A DNA stretch of 22,398 bases from a virus (IMGVR_UViG_2563366887_000003); one strand, 5' to 3'; positions 1,553 through 16,442 are shown, numbered from the stretch's first letter. Notes: generated from the sequence alone by a model not told the origin. Numbers and translations: made by a program.

Positions 1553-1753
1553 TCACGAGGACTGAAGTTTCTCGCAATTAAAATTTATCAGTTTTACTTT
1601 CTGCTCTCTGGAAACGCCTGCTTCTTTTTTACCTGAGAGCATTTTTTCGCATTCTGATTTCGTTAGTTTAGATTTTGAATATCTTGTCCAGTTAGTAGGA
1701 GTGCCACCTTCCTTTTCAATAGTGGCGGTAATTTTATACATGAACACCTCCAT
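1553..1753 (-). CDS. ydaC: Small Rac protein YdaC-like (about 62-66 aa)
   Basis: ORF MEVFMYKITATIEKEGGTPTNW... matches my memory of Rac YdaC. Start is ambiguous between ATG at 1753 and ATG at 1741, which has a GGAGGTG Shine-Dalgarno just upstream. Confidence 0.55.
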   Translation of the reverse strand: MEVFMYKITATIEKEGGTPTNWTRYSKSKLTKSECEKMLSGKKEAGVSREQKVKLINFNCEKLQSS

Positions 1754-6669: not shown

Positions 6670-7158
6670 ATGTTGGATGTATTTACTCCATTGTTGAAAC
6701 TTTTTGCTAACGAGCCACTCGAAATACTTATGTATACGATTATCATTTTTGGTCTCACTCTCTGGCTGATACCGAAAGAGTTTACTGTCGCATTCAATGC
6801 TTATACTGAAATACCTTGGCTCTTTCAGATTATCGTTTTTGCCTTTTCTTTCGTGGTCGCCATTTCCTTCTCAAGATTGCGAGCACATATTCAAAAGCAT
6901 TATTCATTACTACCAGAGCAACGAGTATTGCTTCGTTTATCTGAGAAAGAAATCGCTGTATTTAAAGATTTCCTTAAAACAGGAAATCTTATTATCACTT
7001 CTCCTTGCCGTAACCCGGTTATGAAAAAATTAGAACGGAAGGGCATCATTCAACATCAGAGTGATAGCGCAAACTGTTCTTATTATCTCGTCACCGAAAA
7101 ATACTCCCATTTTATGAAGTTATTCTGGAACAGCAGGAGTAGACGTTTTAATCGTTAG
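6670..7158 (+). CDS. sieB: Superinfection exclusion protein SieB (162 aa)
   Basis: MLDVFTPLLKLFANEPLEILMYTIIIFGLTLWLIPKEF... with hydrophobic N-terminal segments; matches my recollection of Rac SieB. The track ORF begins upstream at a non-ATG position. Confidence 0.85.
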   Translation: MLDVFTPLLKLFANEPLEILMYTIIIFGLTLWLIPKEFTVAFNAYTEIPWLFQIIVFAFSFVVAISFSRLRAHIQKHYSLLPEQRVLLRLSEKEIAVFKDFLKTGNLIITSPCRNPVMKKLERKGIIQHQSDSANCSYYLVTEKYSHFMKLFWNSRSRRFNR

Positions 7159-7310
7159 CTTACTGTGTGCTTCTCCAACCATCGGCGCGCACCAGTTTCG
7201 GTTTTAAATGTTTTGCTTTTGGTATACGTCATGGCAGTGAACGTTCCATCCTGGTTGGGGAACACGCCGCACACCAGGGATTCGTTGTTGCCGAGGTCGA
7301 TTTTTTGCAT
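7155..7310 (-). CDS. ydaF: YdaF-like small protein (51 aa)
   Basis: Below the track cutoff; my translation is MQKIDLGNNESLVCGVFPNQDGTFTAMTYTKSKTFKTETGARRWLEKHTVS. Overlaps sieB tail-to-tail by 4 nt. Confidence 0.7.
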   Translation of the reverse strand: MQKIDLGNNESLVCGVFPNQDGTFTAMTYTKSKTFKTETGARRWLEKHTVS

Positions 7311-7320
7311 TTTGCGAATC

Positions 7321-7455
7321 TCACATCTTGTTGCTGTGTATAGCGACTTCTGCCTGCCAGAGATCCCAGTCGTTGCTGCGTAAAGCCTGCACAGCCTGGT
7401 TGTAAGTGATACCGCAACAATCCATCAAATACTGAACTACTTCGTAATGCACCAT
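7321..7455 (-). CDS. ydaG: YdaG-like small protein (44 aa)
   Basis: Below the track cutoff; my translation is MVHYEVVQYLMDCCGITYNQAVQALRSNDWDLWQAEVAIHSNKM. Confidence 0.7.
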   Translation of the reverse strand: MVHYEVVQYLMDCCGITYNQAVQALRSNDWDLWQAEVAIHSNKM

Positions 7456-7504
7456 CTTATCTCTCCCCTTAACGCCGGGTGACCTAGTTTTACCATCGCT
7501 GCAT

Positions 7505-7648
7505 ATGGCAAACCGCGAACTGCGTCGGGCGAAAAATCATGTCCAGAAGTGGGAGCGAGTCTGCGCCGCGCTGCGGGAGCTGAACAAGCACCGGGATATT
7601 GTCCGACAGATTGTCGATTCCTCCAGTCGTATTGTGTCGGAAAAGTGA
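7505..7648 (+). CDS. Small charged ORF (47 aa), possibly the N-terminal part of a gene split by an in-frame TGA
   Basis: ATG at 7505; translation MANRELRRAKNHVQKWERVCAALRELNKHRDIVRQIVDSSSRIVSEK; no obvious Shine-Dalgarno. It is in the same frame as the 7664 ORF, separated only by TGA (7646-7648) and five codons. Confidence 0.25.
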   Translation: MANRELRRAKNHVQKWERVCAALRELNKHRDIVRQIVDSSSRIVSEK

Positions 7649-7663
7649 TTGCCGGAGGCGCTT

Positions 7664-8080: not shown

Positions 8081-8218
8081 ACGTTACTAGATCAAAGAGC
8101 ATTAGTTCATATGTAAATTGACATTTTTCTGGCACAGGGGAGAGCTAGCGTGGTTGTCCGCTTTGTGCCAATAGCGGACATTGCTGGCTCATGGTATGTT
8201 AGTTTAAGGAGGCAGGTT

Positions 8219-9241
8219 ATGCCCTGTATTTCGCTGTGGTATAATAGTTGCGCAATTGATACAAGGGAGCGTTACATCGTGAAAATTGTTTTCGAGGTTA
8301 ATGGAAAGAAAGTTCCACTAAAATCTTTAAAATACATAAGCAAAAAAGATCAACTCGAAGTAATGAAAAACTGGTTCTTTGAAAACTTTGAAGATCCGGC
8401 AAATGCTTGTCCGTATGAAAGTAGAGAAGGTGGCTATGCTTACATATATGGCGGGCCGTATGATGCGAGCGAAGAACTACAATCCATCTTCGGTCAATAT
8501 GTTAAATCTGAGTATATTGAGGAATTAGTAGATGAATTACAAACACAATGTTTTGACTGGTCTGGAAACTCAAATAATATAGATGATTGGTACGATGATG
8601 ATATCTACGACGCTGTAACGTCTTCCGGTAATCCGTATTTAAAATTCATTGATAATATCGATAAAATAAAAAAACTTGCAAAAGATAAAACTGAACAACA
8701 GCAAAAAAACCACTTGCTTAGTTTGCTCTACACGAATGTTATTACAGCTTTGGAAACGCTTTATGTTGAGCTATTCATTAATTCTATAGAGAAAGATGAT
8801 GTCTACATAGCCAATTGTATAGAAAAAGGTAAGACTGAATTTAAAGTAAGCAAAGATATTGCTGCGTTGCCTTTCAAGGGTGAACCCATCGAGAAAATTA
8901 GGGGAGAGCTAATCAGGTCAATCAAGGAACACTTGATCAGTGCAAGCTGGCATAGCACTAAAAAGGTAATCGACCGCTATGAAGCTACATTCGATATAAA
9001 AGTACAAAAAGACTGTCCGATAGAAGCTATTGAATTGGCAACCCTCAATCGAAATCACTTAGTGCATCGTGGTGGAAAGGATAAAGAAGGGAACCTCGTA
9101 GTGATTACAGACCAGGATCTTGAAACGCTGATTGAAAATGCATCGAACCTGGCAATTATGCTCTACAACAGTTTAAATGTAGCAACGAATAAAACCACCA
9201 TTTTGCAACCAGATGACAAACCGTTCATTCATGAATTTTAA
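8219..9241 (+). CDS. Hypothetical protein A of an AT-rich two-gene operon (341 aa from ATG 8219, or 320 aa from GTG 8279); C-terminal region carries an R-x4-H motif (RNHLVH) reminiscent of HEPN domains
   Basis: Long ORF with a sharp shift to AT-rich composition from about 8280. ATG 8219 has a perfect TAAGGAGG 6 nt upstream. Alternative GTG 8279 has AAGGGAG upstream and follows an extended -10 (TGgTATAAT at 8237-8245). No family recognised by eye. Confidence 0.7.
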   Translation: MPCISLWYNSCAIDTRERYIVKIVFEVNGKKVPLKSLKYISKKDQLEVMKNWFFENFEDPANACPYESREGGYAYIYGGPYDASEELQSIFGQYVKSEYIEELVDELQTQCFDWSGNSNNIDDWYDDDIYDAVTSSGNPYLKFIDNIDKIKKLAKDKTEQQQKNHLLSLLYTNVITALETLYVELFINSIEKDDVYIANCIEKGKTEFKVSKDIAALPFKGEPIEKIRGELIRSIKEHLISASWHSTKKVIDRYEATFDIKVQKDCPIEAIELATLNRNHLVHRGGKDKEGNLVVITDQDLETLIENASNLAIMLYNSLNVATNKTTILQPDDKPFIHEF

Positions 9242-9256
9242 TAGCGCAGGTCATAC

Positions 9257-10258
9257 ATGGATATTCGCACACGAAAGACAAAATTTTTAGAGTCGTTAGA
9301 TTCAACTGAAGTGATACGCAAAGCAGTAAGTCTCGCTATAGATTGCATTATTGATAATCATAATAGTAATGAAGATACCCCCTTAGTTATTACCAGCTAT
9401 GATGATCTCTGTAGAATCCAGGTGCTAAATTATGTACAGGAGTTTTGCGAAGCTGCATTCCCTGATATGGATGAATATTACTTTAGTCCTAACATACTTC
9501 GCATCAACGGCAAGACTAGTGAAGAAGCTTGTATTAACTTAATTAAACTCTTAAGAAGTACAAAAGGCATGCTATTCTGGTCCGATGCCCCATCGTGGTT
9601 CGCTAGCCTCCCCGACGGATTATTCCATGTTGTTAACATTGATCAAAAAATCGTTACTCGCGGCCTTAATAAGAAAAACTCTAAGCCGACAATAATCAAT
9701 AAAGATTACAGTGTAGATACACTACTATCAGAGCTATTTTTGAATGGCGCACACATGGAGCAACCCAACGTACACAACGTTTCTGAGGGAAACATGAAGT
9801 TCTATGATGAATGCCATGCTGGATTAATCAGACCAATACCCGCTCCAATAGGCGCGTCATACGATGAAGAGATCACAATTAATTCTCCAGATTGGCAAAA
9901 GCTCGCGTGTGTAGCTTTACGCCGCTATCAGTCGAAGGAATGTCATGACGGAATGCAATGGGATACAACCGATCATGGTTGGACTGATGTAATCGCGTAT
10001 CCATTCGTCGAAGAAATACAATCAATGGATAATAGTGGTTATCGACAATGTTTAGTTGGGCTGGTCACAATAAACAATTCAAATGCAAATTCTCCGTACC
10101 TATCTACCGTTTGGATACATCCATTTTATCGCAGGAGAGGGTTATTAAGTAAGTTATGGCCAAAATTACAAGAGTTATATGGAAGTAACTTCGAAATTGA
10201 GCGACCTAATGAAAATATGAAAGCATTTCTGAAAAGTGCGAAACACGCAGATTACTAA
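9257..10258 (+). CDS. Hypothetical protein B of the two-gene operon (333 aa)
   Basis: ATG 15 nt after the stop of protein A, same strand, same AT-rich composition. C-terminus (WIHPFYRRRGLLSKLW...NENMKAFLKSA) loosely resembles GNAT motifs A and B but the tail is too short for a canonical GNAT fold. Confidence 0.75.
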   Translation: MDIRTRKTKFLESLDSTEVIRKAVSLAIDCIIDNHNSNEDTPLVITSYDDLCRIQVLNYVQEFCEAAFPDMDEYYFSPNILRINGKTSEEACINLIKLLRSTKGMLFWSDAPSWFASLPDGLFHVVNIDQKIVTRGLNKKNSKPTIINKDYSVDTLLSELFLNGAHMEQPNVHNVSEGNMKFYDECHAGLIRPIPAPIGASYDEEITINSPDWQKLACVALRRYQSKECHDGMQWDTTDHGWTDVIAYPFVEEIQSMDNSGYRQCLVGLVTINNSNANSPYLSTVWIHPFYRRRGLLSKLWPKLQELYGSNFEIERPNENMKAFLKSAKHADY

Positions 10259-10812
10259 TTTATGAATCAGTCTGTGGAGTTAGGGTTGGTGTGAACAAGT
10301 AGGGTAAGAGCCTCAACGTGATGCTATGCCGACCTGCTCCCTGAGAATTCACACAGAAGGCTGCTAGCAATGTCTGCAGATCGCTCAAAGCGGACTAAAA
10401 TGTTGGCTTGTTTCTGACTTAGAGCATTTAAGGAAGTGCTGGTGGTGACTGGTTGTTGTGTTCCATTTCTACAGAATAAAATCACAGAAACTATACCCAA
10501 TAGTTGTATTGAATCACTGACGAGACAGCCTCATATTTATCAGGACTGGTGTGCGTCTAATACAGGGGGTTGTCGTGCTGGTTCTCAAATGTGCGCTGGC
10601 TATTGCGGCTGTAATGGCAATTTATTGTCTTGCTGTTGTTCTTATGGAGCGGCTTTCTGATTGATTACATACTGGCTAGAAAAAAGGTGTTACCTTGGTT
10701 TATCTTTGTCCGGCAAGGTGCGCTCATTAATCTTAAGTAAATTTATTGCTCAAGTATTCAGATTACTTCTTATGGTTGAAGTCTCCTGTCAATGTAGAAC
10801 CAATATATTTAC

Positions 10813-10850
10813 AAAAATGAGACCCGTCGGGGATAGCCCTGCCGGGTCTG
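10813..10850 (-). terminator. Rho-independent terminator downstream of the YeaR-like gene
   Basis: On the minus strand: GC-rich hairpin agacccg...cgggtct followed by cattttt, about 30 nt after the stop at 10879. Confidence 0.5.
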
Positions 10851-10878: not shown

Positions 10879-11217
10879 CTATTTTTTGGTGCTATAGACT
10901 TTTTCGCCCGAAAAGTCTGGAGCGACCCAAAAGTTAATATTAAACTGAGCATCATCGCTTAGTTCAACACGGTGCCAGTATTGTGGTGGGCTTGTTGCAA
11001 AAGCGCCAGCATTAATGACTACTTTTATCTCCGGTTCAGTAGCATTCTCATCAGTAAAACCATAATATGTTACAGTGCCTTCCATTACGCACAACTGCCC
11101 AAAAACACCTGCTGCTGTATTATGATGTGTTAATAACGCTGAAGGTACGTTCTCTTTTGTGAAGAACGGAGTTGAGCGTTTGATTACCCAATCTTTAGGA
11201 ATTCTCTTGTGTGTCAT
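10879..11217 (-). CDS. YeaR-like DUF1971 (cupin-like, TehB-N-domain-like) protein, 112 aa
   Basis: ATG at 11215-11217 with GGAGGAGGTGG Shine-Dalgarno. Sequence pattern RSTPFF...LCVMEGTVTYYGF...EP...AGAFA..PP..WH...FNINFWVAP parallels E. coli YeaR as I remember it. The track ORF starts 8 codons upstream, inside the palindrome. Confidence 0.7.
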   Translation of the reverse strand: MTHKRIPKDWVIKRSTPFFTKENVPSALLTHHNTAAGVFGQLCVMEGTVTYYGFTDENATEPEIKVVINAGAFATSPPQYWHRVELSDDAQFNINFWVAPDFSGEKVYSTKK

Positions 11218-11225
11218 AACCACCT

Positions 11226-11272
11226 CCTCCAAAAGATGCATTAAAAATGCATCTTTTGGAGGGTTATGTCAA
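11226..11272 (-). promoter_or_regulatory. Perfect 17-bp inverted repeat (3-nt spacer) resembling an NsrR operator, with a consensus -35 TTGACA immediately upstream
   Basis: cctccaaaagatgcatt-aaa-aatgcatcttttggagg at 11226-11262. Its core AAGATGCATTAAAAATGCATCTT matches the NsrR box (AAGATGCATTT-N-AAATGCATCTT, as I recall it) at 22 of 23 positions. On the minus strand TTGACA (plus 11267-11272) lies just upstream; the repeat ends 9 nt before the start codon. Confidence 0.6.
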
Positions 11273-12030
11273 GCTGTTATGAAACACATAATTGATATGT
11301 TGATTAGAGGAGAAGATAGAATAAATATGGTTGTTTTTCGTATAACTATTTGTTTTACTTTTAGTTTATGCATTCTGTGTGTTAGGAATAAGTTATTAAA
11401 GTTTAATCAAAAAATCTCGATGTAGTCCACATAGATTACTGTTACTGAACCTTATTGTGTGTATTAGTTGTGTTCTGAAATTTCAGCTTAATTATTTATG
11501 ATGTATTTTTTAACGATAAATATTTCCCCAGGATACCTTTACTGTGTATATAAATAAATTATATACGCATAAATAATGTAAAGGCGTCCTTTTAGATATA
11601 TCTTATCAAATGTTAATGACTTGAGTGGGAAATATGATTCCAGCAACTTATCATGTGGCTACTTTATAAAAATAATGCCCATATAAAACAACAAGCGAAA
11701 AGGATTACGGATAAAAAAGGAGCGAGATGTGCGAACTTGTTATTTTCCATGTTTAACCACCTTAAATAATTGATGATGACGGGATGATTGCATCTGTAAT
11801 GCTTTTATTGAAATGTTATGATAAAAAAGAACTTTTGCATAACATTAAAATGTAATTTATCTAATCGTTTTTAATAATAAGTGTCGTATTTCTATCCTTG
11901 TACCAGCTATTTGATATGTAGTGTTTGTTCATGCTATGTGGGGCTTTACACCATAGCCAGTTTATTTATACTTTATTCGTCAGCCTGAACAACTGGCATC
12001 TGCTGCGCTGCGCCATCGAGAGATTGAGAA

Positions 12031-13459: not shown

Positions 13460-13540
13460 TTTCTTACGTATAAACTGCTTCAATTTTGCTATGCTTCGCA
13501 AAGCTGTATCGCGAGGCGGATTGCAGACATGGACATCGTA

Positions 13541-13566
13541 AAAAAACCGCTTAATGCGGTTTTTTT
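13541..13566. terminator. Bidirectional rho-independent terminator after the Q-like gene
   Basis: aaaaaaccgc-ttaat-gcggttttttt: a short GC stem flanked by an A6 run and a T7 run. Confidence 0.6.
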
Positions 13567-13886
13567 ACGTCAGGAAAGCAGGGGAGAATGCTGCTAGTTG
13601 GGCAACTGGTCTTTCTGCTCCAAATTATAACAGAGACCAGTTATAGTTTCGGTGCTGTGTTTTTTTTACAATATTGTGATAACACATTGCTGGCGGGAGT
13701 TTTGATATTTCTTGGCAGGGGCTGATGATGCGTTATCCTGATGTCGTCAACTCATATAAAATGAGATGAGAGATCATTGCAGGGTGGTTTGTAATTCGCT
13801 GTTTAGCGGGACAATATGTTGTCTGATACAAGACACCCGACGCCTCAGATTACTATAATAAAGACGAAGCATCCTTTGTATTGACC

Positions 13887-13912
13887 AACCGCCTGTTTAG
13901 GCGGTTCTTTTT
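13887..13912 (+). terminator. Rho-independent terminator (tR'-like candidate)
   Basis: aaccgcc-tgttta-ggcggtt followed by cttttt. Confidence 0.55.
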
Positions 13913-14444
13913 GGGCTGGTTTATTGTATGCCAAATGATTATTAAAAAGGTTGTGTTAATAACAAAATCCGAAATAATATGCCTGCATATTTTTATCTTG
14001 CTTATATTCTGCATATTGTGCATAGCAGGCTCATCCCTGCAATCAAAACTGTATGATGAGTATTTTTTGTTTTCCTTTTTTCCAGTCATCTGATGATGAC
14101 CTGCTTCTTTTTAATCCGGATCGACATCAGTTTTTTAAGATAATTCCTGCGAGTTATATGCATAAATGCCACAAACTCCGCATTTTATGTGGTTGGGAGT
14201 TGCCGGGCGCGCAGTGAGTTTGCTAAGAAAACTCCTGCATGGTGAATCCCCCTGTGCGGTGGGGTGATACCATTAACCTTTTCTGTCGCCGACAGGTATC
14301 ACGAACATTTTGTTCACCGGGAGGCACCCGGCACCATGCACTTCAATAGATTCTCTCCACATTATGGATATTCTTTCAGAATATCCCACGCAGACTTTGT
14401 GTAAATGTTAACAAATGTGCGTTTTATTTGATCTGATTCGCTGT

Positions 14445-14474
14445 TTGAGCGTCCAAAACAACGGTATATATAAT
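14445..14474 (+). promoter_or_regulatory. Candidate sigma70 promoter for the first TolA-like lipoprotein gene
   Basis: TTGAGC (14445-14450), 18-nt spacer, TATAAT (14469-14474), about 30 nt upstream of the start codon. Confidence 0.4.
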
Positions 14475-14503
14475 CCTTTACTATATGACATATGTGAGGA
14501 AAA

Positions 14504-14932
14504 ATGGGTTTTCGTAGCGCATCAATTCTTACGTTGATTATTAGTGGGATTATTATCGGGTGCACTGATGCTGTATCGACAAATTATCATGACCGTACAT
14601 CATATTACTCCGATAAAGCAATAGAGACACAGTATGTGAGTTCATCTGAACGTACTTCTGATGTTAGTGAGGATATCCGTCTGTATGCCCATCAAATCAA
14701 GAGCGCCATCGAAAAACAGTTCGGGGATGCGAGTAAGTATTCAGGAAAAGAGTGTACACTGAGAATGCATATGGCCCCGAATGGCCTTCTACTGGAGGTT
14801 AAAAGAGAAAGTGGAGACCTCGATTTATGTCGTGAAGCGATGAATGCGATAAAGAATGCTGATATACCTGCCCCCCCTTCGCCGGAAGTATATAAAGTAT
14901 TTCAAAATGGGGTGCTGGATTTTAAACCCTGA
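14504..14932 (+). CDS. Lipoprotein with a C-terminal TolA-domain-III-like domain (142 aa)
   Basis: Signal peptide with lipobox IIGC (MGFRSASILTLIISGIIIGC). C-terminal 85 aa, YAHQIKSAIEKQFGDASKYSGKECTLRMHMAPNGLLLEVKRESGDLDLCREAMNAIKNADIPAPPSPEVYKVFQNGVLDFKP, closely parallels the TolA C-terminus as I recall it (YAGQIKSAIESKFYDASSYAGKTCTLRIKLAPDGMLLDIKPEGGDPALCQAALAAAKLAKIPKPPSQAVYEVFKNAPLDFKP). Confidence 0.8.
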   Translation: MGFRSASILTLIISGIIIGCTDAVSTNYHDRTSYYSDKAIETQYVSSSERTSDVSEDIRLYAHQIKSAIEKQFGDASKYSGKECTLRMHMAPNGLLLEVKRESGDLDLCREAMNAIKNADIPAPPSPEVYKVFQNGVLDFKP

Positions 14933-15082
14933 TATTTATTGTTTTGTAATAAACGGTTTCGGCTTAGGTTTGTTCTGACACAGCTACGGCACTGAGCTAA
15001 ATTTAGCGGATAGTCAGCTCTGAGCCAGTGGCGGACGTAACAACTACTATTGCTGAGATTTTAATGGATTGAGGAGCAAGAA

Positions 15083-15478
15083 GTGGGATTAAAGAAAATC
15101 GTTATGTTGACTTTTTGGGTCGGTTTTGTTGCGGGATGCACACCTTTACACCCTTCAGATTGCCACAAAACTACTGCTACAGGTAGTTGCAGTTCAGGAC
15201 GCTGGGATGATCAGGATGAATGGGGGGCGCAAGCGCGGGGAATCAGAGCTGCAATTAATGCCAAACTTGATGAGCCGCATAACTGGAAAGGGAAAAAATG
15301 CAGGTTGCATATGGAATTCTCTCAGGATGGCACGGCGTTAAAAATATCTACCAGTAACGGTGATAAAGCCTATTGCGAAGCGATAAAGTCCGCAGCTCAT
15401 AAAGCCAAATTTCCGGCCTTCAACAATCCGGAAGTCTACAGAGATTTTCAGAAATCTGGCTTTGACATGCGAGGTTAG
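15083..15478 (+). CDS. Second, more divergent TolA-domain-III-like lipoprotein (131 aa)
   Basis: GTG start at 15083 with GAGGAG 6 nt upstream. Lipobox VAGC (MGLKKIVMLTFWVGFVAGC). C-terminus KKCRLHMEFSQDGTALKISTSNGDKAYCEAIKSAAHKAKFPAFNNPEVYRDFQKSGFDMRG keeps the two Cys residues and the PEVY motif of the first copy. Confidence 0.7.
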   Translation: MGLKKIVMLTFWVGFVAGCTPLHPSDCHKTTATGSCSSGRWDDQDEWGAQARGIRAAINAKLDEPHNWKGKKCRLHMEFSQDGTALKISTSNGDKAYCEAIKSAAHKAKFPAFNNPEVYRDFQKSGFDMRG

Positions 15479-15729
15479 CTCTTCAATTACTATATCTCAT
15501 TCATAGCAAACTGACAGATTTGATGATGTTCTATATACGAAACCTGTGATGTCAAGTCTGAGCTAATACAAATAAACATAATATCAGAGAAATACATTTT
15601 ATTAGCTCGCTACGGCGAGCTTTTTATATTGCATCGTCTCCAGCATATATATCAATTAAGGCTCTGATTGATGTGTCTGAAAGCCTACACATAATAACTA
15701 TGCCATCCGTTCCGTGCGGAGGTGAGGCT

Positions 15730-15945
15730 ATGAAATCCATGGACAAAATTTCAACAGGCATTGCCTACGGCACCTCCGCAGGCAGTGCTGGCTACTGGTT
15801 TTTACAGTTGCTCGATAGAGTAACTCCGTCACAGTGGGCTGCAATCGGTGTGCTGGGTAGTCTGGTATTTGGCCTGCTGACGTACCTGACAAACCTTTAT
15901 TTCAAGATTAAAGAAGATAAGCGCAAGGCTGCGAGAGGTGAATAA
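15730..15945 (+). CDS. Phage 21-type pinholin (S21-like, 71 aa) with dual-start motif
   Basis: [71 protein letters not shown]. Two in-frame ATGs (15730 and 15739; M-K-S-M) as in S21 antiholin/holin. GGAGGTGAGG Shine-Dalgarno upstream; TAATG overlap with the endolysin. Confidence 0.85.
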
Positions 15946-16442
15946 TGCCTCCATCATTACGAAAAGTCGTTGCTGCTGCTATTGGTGGCGGAGCAATTGC
16001 TATAGCATCAGTGTTAATCACTGGCCCAAGTGGTAACGATGGTCTGGAAGGTGTCAGCTACATACCATACAAAGATATTGTTGGTGTATGGACTGTATGT
16101 CACGGGCATACAGGAAAAGACATCATGCTCGGTAAAACGTATACCAAAGCAGAATGCAAAACACTCTTGAATAAAGACCTTGCCACTGTCGCCAGACAAA
16201 TTAACCCGTACATCAAAGTCGATATACCGGAAACAACGCGCGGCGCTCTTTACTCATTCGTTTACAACGTGGGTGCTGGCAATTTCAGAACATCGACGCT
16301 TCTTCGCAAAATAAACCAGGGCGATATCAAAGGCGCATGTGATCAGCTACGTCGCTGGACATATGCTGGCGGTAAGCAATGGAAAGGTCTCATGACTCGT
16401 CGTGAGATTGAGCGTGAAATCTGTTTGTGGGGTCAGCAATGA
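15945..16442 (+). CDS. SAR endolysin (R21-like lysozyme, 165 aa)
   Basis: N-terminal Gly/Ala-rich weakly hydrophobic signal-anchor-release segment ([20 protein letters not shown]) followed by a lysozyme-like domain; overlaps the holin stop and the Rz start. Confidence 0.85.

What the first reader, a model, noticed from the sequence alone, without database searches (positions are those of the whole stretch)
10879..11272. Nitric-oxide-type (NsrR-like) operator controlling a YeaR-like gene inside a prophage
A perfect 17-bp-arm inverted repeat lies between a consensus TTGACA -35 and the Shine-Dalgarno of a divergently oriented YeaR-like gene. Its core differs from the NsrR box as I recall it at one position. 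The chromosomal yeaR is a known NsrR/nitrate-regulated gene, so this looks like a duplicated or captured NO-responsive unit as prophage cargo. One arm of the palindrome includes the complement of the Shine-Dalgarno, so in the mRNA it could also form a hairpin that sequesters the ribosome-binding site.
Basis: partly seen in the sequence, partly recalled or inferred. Interest (0 to 1): 0.6.

Follow-up and report, generated by a model that had tools for sequence, protein, structure and literature searches.

The report
Nitric-oxide-switched cargo gene in Rac prophage
A Rac-type prophage of E. coli carries a small self-contained gene unit, a relative of the Salmonella nitric-oxide-resistance gene STM1808, whose promoter is overlapped by a near-perfect binding site for the host's nitric-oxide sensor NsrR; this is a known kind of regulatory unit found in a new, mobile place, and the proposed ribosome-site-hiding RNA hairpin is not supported.

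Summary
A perfect 17-nt-arm inverted repeat (11226-11242 / 11246-11262) lies between a TTGACA hexamer and the start of a minus-strand DUF1971 gene (10879-11217). Its 23-bp core scores 28.8 of a possible 31.6 bits against a matrix built from 27 published NsrR sites. Only ytfE scores higher.

An NsrR box at the same promoter position is present upstream of nearly all enterobacterial orthologs examined. The Salmonella ortholog, STM1808, is a published NsrR-regulon gene. NsrR control is therefore strongly supported, though only in silico.

The gene is not a copy of chromosomal yeaR: it is 41% identical to YeaR and its promoter is built differently. It is about 77% identical to the Salmonella gene at the dsbB-linked position expected for STM1808. 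In E. coli it occurs only as prophage cargo (457 of 5,426 complete genomes).

The mRNA-hairpin idea is not supported. The conserved -35/-10 geometry puts the transcription start inside the palindrome. The arm that complements the Shine-Dalgarno is broken in many prophage alleles and is absent from chromosomal orthologs. Covariation does not exceed the controls.

An unexpected extra is that the operator palindrome is the most variable part of the unit.

Verdict: a new member of a known kind, of moderate interest.

The parts
11268..11273 (-). -35 hexamer TTGACA of the cargo gene's own promoter
   Evidence: Read directly. Invariant in all 13 distinct prophage alleles. A -35-like hexamer lies at the same 17-18 bp spacing in about 60 distinct ortholog upstream regions.
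11244..11249 (-). Candidate -10 hexamer CATTTT (positions 7-12 of the NsrR box), 17 bp from the -35
   Evidence: Conserved geometry [T/C]AT[A/T]TT at box positions 7-12 across lineages. This is inferred and not mapped. The predicted start is about 11237, inside the gene-proximal arm.
11233..11255 (.). 23-bp NsrR box (11-1-11 inverted repeat), AAGATGCATTTTTAATGCATCTT on the gene strand
   Evidence: 28.8 bits of a possible 31.6 against the matrix from Mehta et al. 2015 Table 4. The next-best window hit scores 14 bits. Orthologous boxes of 24-30 bits occur in Enterobacteriaceae.
11226..11262 (.). Full 37-bp perfect palindrome (NsrR box plus 7 bp on each side: CCTCCAA / TTGGAGG)
   Evidence: The extension is specific to certain alleles and is the most variable part of the unit: 15 of 37 columns vary among prophage copies.
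11220..11230 (-). Shine-Dalgarno block GGAGGAGGTGG. The first GGAGG (11226-11230) lies in the gene-proximal palindrome arm.
   Evidence: Read directly. AGGTGGTT-ATG is nearly invariant among prophage alleles, while the first GGAGG varies (GGAGG, TGAGG, TGATG, ATGGG, ATAGG).
10879..11217 (-). 112-aa DUF1971 protein (stop codon included), short stand-alone 'TehB-like' / STM1808-type subfamily
   Evidence: Pfam PF09313 E 2.3e-26. PDB 3DL3 E 3.5e-59; YeaR 3BB6 E 1.6e-24. 77% identical to the dsbB-linked Salmonella gene and 41% to K-12 YeaR.
10812..10849 (-). Intrinsic-terminator-like hairpin (AGACCCG...CGGGUCU) followed by CAUUUUUGU, about 30 nt after the stop codon
   Evidence: RNA fold -19.4 kcal/mol, z -2.05. 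The scan missed it, probably because its apical region exceeds that tool's 3-8 nt loop limit.

Best explanation
This is an autonomous prophage cargo unit (a 'moron') with its own promoter, operator, gene and terminator. It is transcribed against the direction of the flanking phage genes, in the variable slot just left of the DUF1367-DUF1364-Q block of a Rac-type lambdoid prophage. The gene encodes a short DUF1971 protein of the STM1808 / stand-alone TehB-like subfamily. The host's [Fe-S] nitric-oxide sensor NsrR is predicted to bind the 23-bp box. That box overlaps the -10 element and the predicted transcription start, so NsrR would repress by occluding the promoter. Nitrosylation of NsrR under NO stress would release it and switch the gene on. 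The unit was captured together with its operator from a chromosomal enterobacterial locus. It is not copied from E. coli yeaR, and it gives about 8% of E. coli strains a gene the species otherwise lacks. The 7-bp extension on each side, which makes the palindrome perfect over 37 bp and happens to include GGAGG/CCTCC, is most likely a by-product of template-switch (quasipalindrome) mutation at an already strong inverted repeat, and not a selected RNA structure. Shown here: the sequence features, the matrix score, the conservation, the geometry and the distribution. Inferred: NsrR binding, the start site, NO induction, the protein's function and the mutational origin of the extension.
For: Matrix score 28.8 of 31.6 bits, second only to ytfE, and 26.1 bits with ytfE left out of training; the next window hit scores 14 bits (sites). 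About 5e-5 such hits are expected by chance. A box of 24-30 bits lies 15-27 nt from the ATG in nearly all examined orthologs from Kluyvera, Leclercia, Citrobacter, Klebsiella, Raoultella and Salmonella (one Leclercia locus, L010, scores only 12 bits). It is absent from most Vibrio, Aliivibrio and Shewanella orthologs. The -35 / 17-18 bp / box-positions-7-12 geometry holds in about 60 distinct upstream regions. STM1808 is cited as an NsrR-regulon gene with a virulence role (PMC7527575). A 'tehB homolog' was predicted in the NsrR regulon of all enterobacteria and of Photobacterium profundum (PMC1274295). The Salmonella ortholog sits in the order nhaB, dsbB, gene and is 77% identical. A terminator hairpin follows the gene. 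The CDS is 41% GC against 49% for the neighbouring nin/Q genes. The unit is present in 457 of 5,426 E. coli genomes by both stringent and sensitive searches, with one copy in nearly all (at most two) and always at the same prophage position. No Fur, NarL or FNR site exceeds chance in the prophage promoter.
Against: There are no experimental data for this locus: no mapped transcription start, no NsrR binding assay and no expression data. The candidate -10, CATTTT, matches only 3 of 6 consensus positions, and the generic promoter scan did not call it. In the commoner B and C alleles a perfect TATAAT sits 4 bp further downstream, at a 21-bp spacing from TTGACA, so the promoter in use may differ between alleles. 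The commonest allele in the viral-contig sample (allele B) scores only 20.6 bits, about the level of the hmp site. The primary STM1808 paper (Karlinsey et al. 2012) could not be read here. The equation of the dsbB-linked gene with STM1808 rests on locus-tag order as I recall it.
Confidence: 0.8

Rival explanations
1. Dual control. Besides acting as an operator, the 37-nt palindrome is transcribed and forms a 17-bp hairpin that sequesters the Shine-Dalgarno. This could apply to the gene's own mRNA or only to read-through transcripts from upstream, so that only transcripts started at the NsrR-controlled promoter are translated.
For: If both arms are transcribed, the hairpin is very stable (-28.9 kcal/mol, z -6.9) and buries the first GGAGG. 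Among the A and B prophage alleles three arm pairs change on both sides and keep complementarity (CCTCC/GGAGG, CCTCA/TGAGG, CCATCA/TGATGG).
Against: The conserved promoter geometry places the start inside the gene-proximal arm, so the other arm is not in the mRNA. The predicted leader has no significant structure (-5.4 kcal/mol, z 0.7). No promoter-like site on the minus strand was found upstream between 11273 and 12100. The C-allele family breaks 4-6 of the 17 pairs. Covariation does not exceed the controls: three two-sided pairs, a number reached by 193 of 500 shuffles. One compensated allele replaces GGAGG with GATGA, so complementarity is kept while the SD is not. In Citrobacter the equally long extension does not touch the SD. 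A second SD-like AGGTGG lies outside the stem.
Confidence: 0.07
2. The palindrome is not used by NsrR in this context. It could be an inherited relic with no regulatory effect in E. coli, or the operator of another regulator, either phage-encoded or a different Rrf2-family protein.
For: No binding or expression data exist for this locus. Published ChIP data show that many good NsrR-like sites are not detectably bound or not regulatory, and that known targets such as yeaR and ygbA can be missed (PMC5320621). The operator is highly variable among prophage copies, which could be read as relaxed constraint.
Against: The inner GCAT...AT[G/A]C core, the -35 and the spacing are conserved in all prophage alleles. 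All alleles still score 17.5-28.8 bits, within the range of published NsrR sites. The site closely resembles the best-scoring E. coli site in that published table, ytfE. The box is retained across genera that diverged long ago. According to Mehta et al., the NsrR protein of CFT073 is identical to that of K-12 (PMC5320621).
Confidence: 0.08
3. The palindrome extension beyond the 23-bp box is selected at the DNA level, for example for tighter or higher-order NsrR binding or for cruciform formation, and is not a neutral product of template-switch mutation.
For: Extensions of at least 5 bp occur in 27% of distinct operator sequences against 2% in a flank-swapping control. They occur in several independent lineages with different flank sequences and with compensated variants: Citrobacter GCATCTAT/ATAGATGC, GCATTTAT/ATAAATGC, GCACCTAT/ATAGGTGC; Yokenella TCATCTAT/ATAGATGA; Raoultella; one Kluyvera; and prophage alleles A and B. 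The Citrobacter flanks recreate extra AGATGC half-site-like motifs (my reading).
Against: Most lineages, including Klebsiella, most Kluyvera and Leclercia, and Salmonella, have extensions of 0-3 bp. The K-12 ytfE operator has none. The flank sequences differ between lineages, so no shared protein-contact motif is evident. Quasipalindromes are documented hotspots for template-switch mutations that make imperfect repeats perfect (PMC7202029, abstract seen). That mechanism predicts compensated changes without selection.
Confidence: 0.15

Closest known systems
Salmonella Typhimurium STM1808 (NsrR-regulated DUF1971 gene) and its chromosomal orthologs in Citrobacter, Klebsiella, Kluyvera and Leclercia
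   Same: The protein belongs to the same subfamily (77-82% identity). An NsrR box overlaps the -10 in the same -35/-10 geometry, and the leader is short. STM1808 is cited as an NsrR-regulon member with a virulence role (PMC7527575). From my own recollection of Karlinsey et al. 2012, which I could not check here, STM1808 is a zinc protein that needs His32 and His82. The window protein has His at positions 31, 32 and 82.
   Different: Those genes are core chromosomal genes, downstream of dsbB in the Salmonella, Citrobacter and Klebsiella group and next to PTS/MurQ-like genes in Kluyvera. This copy is on a Rac-type prophage, has a lower GC content (41% against 47-57%), a perfect TTGACA, a longer palindrome and no Fur-like box.
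E. coli yeaR-yoaG operon (NsrR-repressed, NarL-activated)
   Same: Both encode DUF1971 proteins, and both are preceded by an 11-1-11 NsrR box.
   Different: The proteins are only 41% identical. The yeaR box (AAATGGTATTTAAAATGCAAATT, 24.1 bits) differs at several positions and lies 64 nt from the ATG, against 15 nt here. There is no yoaG partner gene here, and no NarL 7-2-7 site above chance. The prophage gene is therefore a paralog of yeaR and not its duplicate.
E. coli ytfE NsrR operator
   Same: The 23-bp sequence is nearly identical: the CFT073 ytfE site differs at one specified position plus the centre base.
   Different: The ytfE box sits differently relative to its -35 (the box starts 2 bp after TTGCCT) and has no palindromic extension. 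The downstream gene is unrelated.
Lambdoid prophage 'morons' under host regulatory control
   Same: It is a compact promoter-gene-terminator unit inserted between phage modules, oriented independently of phage transcription and of lower GC content. It is expected to be expressed from the lysogen and to benefit the host. The general concept comes from established knowledge.
   Different: The controlling factor here would be the NO sensor NsrR. I found no paper linking NsrR to a Rac-prophage gene or to this protein in the searched library.
PDB 3DL3, 'tellurite resistance protein B' (119 aa)
   Same: It is the closest solved structure, at E 3.5e-59 over residues 1-111. It is a stand-alone DUF1971 protein of the same length class.
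   Different: It is a structural-genomics entry with no function assigned, as far as the tool output shows. The 'TehB' name is by homology to the N-terminal domain of long TehB proteins. The window protein lacks the methyltransferase domain: its NCBIfam TehB score is 49 bits against a cutoff of 303.

Membership tests
NsrR operator (Rrf2-family NO-sensing repressor site, E. coli type) | Two 11-bp AAGATGCATTT-like half-sites as an inverted repeat with a 1-bp spacer, scoring within the range of validated sites | tested here: met
   28.8 bits of a possible 31.6. The published sites range from 11.8 to 31.6 bits. With ytfE excluded from training the score is 26.1 bits, above every other site in the table (ytfE still scores higher).
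NsrR operator (Rrf2-family NO-sensing repressor site, E. coli type) | Position compatible with repression (overlapping the core promoter or transcription start) | tested here: inconclusive
   The box lies between TTGACA and the SD, and the conserved geometry places the -10 at box positions 7-12. The start site has not been mapped, and the -10 matches only 3 of 6 consensus positions.
NsrR operator (Rrf2-family NO-sensing repressor site, E. coli type) | Conservation of the site upstream of orthologous genes in genomes that use NsrR (phylogenetic footprint) | tested here: met
   Boxes of 24-30 bits occur in nearly all enterobacterial orthologs examined. They are absent from most Vibrionaceae and Shewanella orthologs. 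This agrees with the prediction of Rodionov et al. 2005.
NsrR operator (Rrf2-family NO-sensing repressor site, E. coli type) | Physical binding by NsrR, and derepression in an nsrR mutant or with NO | not testable with these tools
   This needs a gel shift or ChIP and a reporter or qRT-PCR experiment. Only the Salmonella ortholog has published evidence, seen here second-hand.
DUF1971 (PF09313) protein family | Full-length match to the domain model above the curated cutoff | tested here: met
   92 bits against a cutoff of 23.1, covering model positions 1-80 of 80.
YeaR orthologs (E. coli yeaR-yoaG type) | Closest relationship to YeaR, a yoaG partner gene and yeaR-type promoter architecture | tested here: not met
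   41% identity to YeaR against 77-82% to the STM1808-type genes. There is no yoaG downstream, where a terminator follows instead. The box sequence and its distance to the ATG differ.
STM1808-type short TehB-like subfamily | High identity over the full length to the dsbB-linked Salmonella gene, the same length class, and an NsrR box at the promoter | tested here: met
   77% identity over 112 aa to the S. arizonae gene in the order nhaB, dsbB, gene, which also has an NsrR box. Calling that gene 'STM1808' rests on locus-tag order as I recall it.
Long TehB SAM-dependent methyltransferase | Methyltransferase domain, with the equivalog model above its cutoff | tested here: not met
   NCBIfam NF008992 scores 49 bits against a cutoff of 303, and only model positions 11-106 of 289 are matched.
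Prophage moron | An autonomous promoter and terminator flanking a non-phage gene, inserted between conserved phage modules and variably present among related phages | tested here: met
   A promoter-like element and a terminator-like hairpin flank the gene. The unit sits between variable cargo and the DUF1367-DUF1364-Q block. It is present in 457 genomes, whereas 1,982 match part of the 1.5-kb query that also includes the start of the neighbouring DUF1367 gene. Expression from the lysogen was not tested.

The most novel reading that the evidence does not exclude
The operator palindrome may be a self-mutating regulatory hotspot. Template-switch mutation at the quasipalindrome would continually generate operator and -10 variants. 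The observed alleles score 17.5-28.8 bits and carry CATTTT, CATTTA or a centred TATAAT. Different E. coli lineages would then carry heritably different NO thresholds or basal levels for an otherwise nearly invariant prophage-borne NO-resistance gene, a contingency-like tuning of a moron by the structure of its own operator. A second reading that is not excluded is that the perfect-palindrome alleles also block translation of read-through transcripts through an SD-sequestering hairpin.
Probability: 0.12. Interest if true: 0.55.

Novelty: new member of a known kind. Interest (0 to 1): 0.35.

Why it matters
NsrR-controlled DUF1971 genes are already known as chromosomal genes: STM1808 in Salmonella, and a computational prediction for enterobacteria from 2005. 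What this locus adds is that E. coli lacks that gene in its core genome, and about 8% of strains acquire it, with its operator, on a Rac-type prophage. A temperate phage therefore plugs a host-stress gene directly into the host's nitric-oxide-sensing circuit. If the protein does what STM1808 is reported to do, the prophage would confer a strain-variable advantage under host-derived NO or during nitrate/nitrite respiration. This is relevant because carriers include avian-pathogenic, urinary and livestock isolates. The locus is also a convenient natural series of operator alleles on a constant gene for studying how NsrR affinity maps to expression. The finding is sound but incremental: it extends known kinds of system and does not reveal a new one.

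Tried and rejected
1. RBS-sequestering mRNA hairpin. Rejected as the main mechanism on promoter geometry, the unstructured predicted leader, allele comparison and non-significant covariation.
2. Duplication of chromosomal yeaR. Rejected: 41% protein identity and a different promoter.
3. Co-regulation by Fur, NarL or FNR. The prophage promoter has nothing above chance. A strong Fur-like box exists only in the Kluyvera/Leclercia/Buttiauxella chromosomal orthologs.
4. Palindrome extension as a general property of strong NsrR sites. Rejected: the ytfE operator has none, and most ortholog lineages have 0-3 bp.
5. A known RNA family in the region. Rfam finds only RalA and STnc100 elsewhere in the window.
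6. A diverged core-genome ortholog in E. coli. The sensitive blastn returns the same 457 genomes as megablast.
7. Literature. There are no hits for NsrR with DUF1971, for the RefSeq protein accession, or for NsrR with Rac prophage beyond one paper whose title and abstract are unrelated. The two papers that mention DUF1971 concern other genes. Karlinsey et al. 2012 and Lin et al. 2007 are not held, so the details of STM1808 biochemistry and the mapped yeaR start site could not be checked.
8. I did not run the large protein searches or a structure prediction. A 3DL3 match at E 3.5e-59 and 118 fetched loci already answered the questions those would address.

Full report
**1. The observation**

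On the minus (gene) strand the region reads TTGACA (11273-11268), TAAC, CCTCCAAAAGATGCATT, TTT, AATGCATCTTTTGGAGG, AGGTGGTT, ATG (11217). The repeat finder reports arms at 11226-11242 and 11246-11262, each 17 nt, 100% complementary and 3 nt apart. About 2e-5 such repeats are expected by chance in a window of this size and composition.

The ORF 10879-11217(-) encodes 112 aa and matches Pfam DUF1971 over the whole model (E 2.3e-26). A longer in-frame ORF starts at 11241, but that ATG is the ATGCAT of the palindrome itself. RefSeq annotation and all orthologs start at the MTHK/MSH position.

**2. Context**

The window is a Rac-type lambdoid prophage of E. coli.
- A near-identical locus (NZ_CP059907) carries recE, racC, kilR, sieB, racR, ydaS to ydaV, DUF1627, DUF977, cargo genes, the DUF1971 gene, DUF1367, DUF1364, DUF1133 (Q-like), lysis genes and trkG.
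- Pfam confirms SieB, DUF977, DUF1367, YbcO and the Q-like protein in the window.
- Rfam finds the Rac RalA sRNA and STnc100.
- Three induced phages (vB_EcoS-666R9 and relatives) carry the same unit.

In every context examined the DUF1971 gene sits immediately left of the DUF1367-DUF1364-Q block, on the opposite strand. Its other neighbour varies.

**3. Is the palindrome an NsrR site?**

I built a symmetric weight matrix from the 27 11-1-11 sites in Table 4 of Mehta et al. 2015 (PMC5320621).
- The window site 11233-11255 scores 28.8 bits of a possible 31.6. Only ytfE (31.6) scores higher. Hcp scores 26.2 and chromosomal yeaR 24.1.
- With a matrix from the ChIP-positive sites alone the score is 27.2 bits.
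- With ytfE also left out it is 26.1 bits. No other site in the table scores as high; ytfE itself, left out of training, still scores 29.6.
- The next-best hit in the window scores 14 bits.
- On the gene strand the site differs from the CFT073 ytfE site at one specified position plus the free centre base.

**4. Phylogenetic footprint**

A scan of species-representative genomes returned 80 loci whose proteins are 75-82% identical, apart from one 100%-identical Shigella flexneri copy. They come from Kluyvera, Leclercia, Citrobacter, Klebsiella, Raoultella, Salmonella, Vibrio, Aliivibrio, Photobacterium, Shewanella and others. A viral-contig scan returned 36 mostly E. coli prophage copies.

I scored the 250 bp upstream of each.
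- Nearly all enterobacterial orthologs have a box of 24-30 bits, 15-27 nt from the start codon.
- Most Vibrionaceae and Shewanella orthologs have nothing above about 8 bits. The exceptions are two Photobacterium loci (28.4 and 18.2 bits) and one Aliivibrio locus (12.0 bits).

This agrees with Rodionov et al. 2005, who predicted a 'tehB homolog' in the NsrR regulon of all enterobacteria and of Photobacterium profundum (PMC1274295). Gilberthorpe et al. 2007 later tested the tehA-linked tehB and saw no regulation (PMC2884951). That result is understandable if the predicted gene was the short DUF1971 homolog; this is my inference.

STM1808 is cited as an NsrR-regulon gene with a virulence role (PMC7527575). 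The primary paper, Karlinsey et al. 2012, is not held.

**5. Which DUF1971 gene is it?**

- It is 41% identical to K-12 YeaR.
- It is 77% identical to the S. enterica arizonae gene that lies in the order nhaB, dsbB, gene. By my recollection of LT2 locus-tag order, that is the STM1808 position.
- The closest solved structure is 3DL3, a 119-aa stand-alone 'TehB' (E 3.5e-59). YeaR (3BB6) is much more distant (E 1.6e-24).
- It is not a long TehB methyltransferase (NCBIfam 49 bits against a cutoff of 303).
- The yeaR promoter has a different box (AAATGGTATTTAAAATGCAAATT), 64 nt from its ATG.

The unit is therefore a captured STM1808-type gene with its own operator, and not a duplicate of yeaR.

Both megablast and sensitive blastn find the gene in the same 457 of 5,426 complete E. 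coli genomes, almost always as one chromosomal copy. No diverged core ortholog is detectable. The CDS is 41% GC, against 47-57% in enterobacterial orthologs and 49% in the adjacent nin/Q genes.

**6. Promoter geometry and the hairpin idea**

Aligning the upstream regions shows one architecture in all lineages. A -35-like hexamer (TTGACA in the prophage; TTTACA, TTGACG or TTGCCT elsewhere) lies 17-18 bp upstream of box positions 7-12. Those positions read [T/C]AT[A/T]TT and look like a -10. In the window this is TTGACA, 17 bp, CATTTT (11249-11244).

This predicts a start near 11237, inside the gene-proximal arm. The box would then cover the -10 and the start site, which is the classical arrangement for repression by occlusion. 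The distal arm would not be transcribed.
- RNA from the predicted start has no significant structure (-5.4 kcal/mol, z 0.7).
- A hypothetical transcript containing both arms would fold at -28.9 kcal/mol.
- No upstream minus-strand promoter was predicted.

The SD-complementary extension is also not conserved. Among 13 distinct prophage operator alleles, the C family breaks 4-6 of the 17 pairs. Overall covariation does not exceed the controls: three pairs have two-sided changes, a number reached by 193 of 500 shuffles. One compensated allele (CCATCA...TGATGA) keeps complementarity while destroying the first GGAGG. Chromosomal orthologs have no SD in the repeat.

The hairpin idea is therefore not supported. 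It could survive only as a device against read-through transcripts in some alleles.

A terminator-like hairpin with a U-run follows the gene at 10812-10849(-), which completes a moron-like unit.

**7. The unexpected feature: a hypervariable, self-extending palindrome**

Variation among 22 distinct prophage sequences:

| Segment | Variable columns |
|---|---|
| 37-bp palindrome | 15 of 37 |
| CDS | 11 of 339 |
| -35 plus the next 5 nt | 0 of 11 |
| Further upstream | 64 of 327 |

- The palindrome is more variable than the CDS (Fisher p = 1.5e-10) and than the upstream spacer (p = 0.006).
- The excess lies in the 14 flank positions outside the 23-bp core (8 of 14, p = 0.003).
- Independently, the CDS is at least 99% identical in 309 carrier genomes, but the 476-bp unit reaches that level in only 23. 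The window's perfect palindrome is thus a minority allele.

Extensions of at least 5 bp beyond the 23-bp box occur in 27% of distinct operator sequences, against 2% in a flank-swapping control. They are confined to a few lineages: Citrobacter and Yokenella, Raoultella, one Kluyvera, and prophage alleles A and B. The flank sequences differ between lineages and show several compensated variants. The ytfE operator has no extension.

The most economical explanation is the documented tendency of quasipalindromes to undergo template-switch mutations that copy one arm from the other (PMC7202029, abstract seen). This is an inference. Selection for extended NsrR contacts or for a DNA structure is not excluded.

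**8. Other regulators**

No Fur, NarL 7-2-7 or FNR site exceeds chance in the prophage promoter. The Kluyvera/Buttiauxella/Leclercia chromosomal orthologs have a Fur-box-like sequence (up to 17 of 19 matches) just upstream of their -35, which the prophage copy lacks.

**9. Verdict**

- The NsrR-operator interpretation is strongly supported in silico.
- 'Captured as prophage cargo' is supported. 'Duplicated yeaR' is not.
- The mRNA hairpin is not supported.
- NsrR control of this gene subfamily is prior knowledge for chromosomal genes. The prophage-borne E. coli copy was not found in the searched literature.
- I file it as a new member of a known kind, of moderate interest. The variable operator palindrome is the one feature that could repay further work.

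All functional steps remain inferred: NsrR binding, the transcription start, NO induction and the protein's role.

Noticed in passing
window 7158-7649, compared with L001 2746-6605: The window's Rac-type prophage lacks the roughly 3.9-kb block carrying racR, ydaS, ydaT, ydaU, ydaV and the start of the DUF1627 gene. This block is present in the otherwise 99.8%-identical neighbour region of strain 181.1. SieB is followed almost directly by DUF977, so this copy is probably a defective prophage without its immunity and replication genes.
   Followed up: partly
window 8150-10258 (+): Two adjacent uncharacterised ORFs (about 340-363 aa and 333 aa; 38% GC) fill the cargo slot next to the DUF1971 unit. 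They have only sub-threshold hits (HEPN/RES N-terminal domain, 21.8 bits; GNAT, 19.9 bits) and no PADLOC or NCBIfam match. In other Rac-type prophages the same slot holds TetR plus adenosine deaminase, NTP pyrophosphatase and SIR2, or KilA-N plus Hok, or QueH. This looks like a variable hotspot, possibly for defence genes.
   Followed up: partly
window 11273-12030: A 757-bp, 30.6% GC stretch with no ORF of 40 aa or more on the gene's (minus) strand separates the moron promoter from the DUF1367 gene. It is moderately variable among prophages (64 of 327 columns examined) and has no Rfam match. Its role is unknown.
   Followed up: no
L004, L025, L011 and relatives, about 65 nt upstream of the DUF1971 start codon: The chromosomal orthologs in Kluyvera, Buttiauxella, Leclercia and Enterobacter pasteurii carry a Fur-box-like GATAATGAGATT(C/T)ATTATC (up to 17 of 19 matches) 8 nt upstream of the -35. 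This suggests combined iron and NO control there. The prophage copy and the dsbB-linked group lack it.
   Followed up: partly
window 1557-1735 (+) and 14207-14393 (+): Rfam gathering-level matches to the RalA antitoxin sRNA (225 bits) and to STnc100 (86.6 bits). Both fit a Rac-type prophage.
   Followed up: no
L026-L051 (Citrobacter) and L060 (Yokenella), operator region: Citrobacter operators are palindromic over 39-43 bp (for example tggcatctat-AAGATGTATATTAAATGCATCTT-atagatgcca). The flanks recreate AGATGC half-site-like motifs, and species-level variants are compensated on both arms.
   Followed up: partly
window 13518-16439, compared with L001: The segment between the Q-like gene and the end of the lysis region does not align with strain 181.1, although both flanks do (97-99% identity). 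This is an exchanged mosaic module.
   Followed up: no
literature (PMC1274295 and PMC2884951): The 2005 prediction of a 'tehB homolog' in the enterobacterial NsrR regulon was followed up in 2007 by testing the tehA-linked tehB, which showed no NsrR effect. The predicted gene was probably the short DUF1971 homolog, which would explain the negative result. This is my inference.
   Followed up: no
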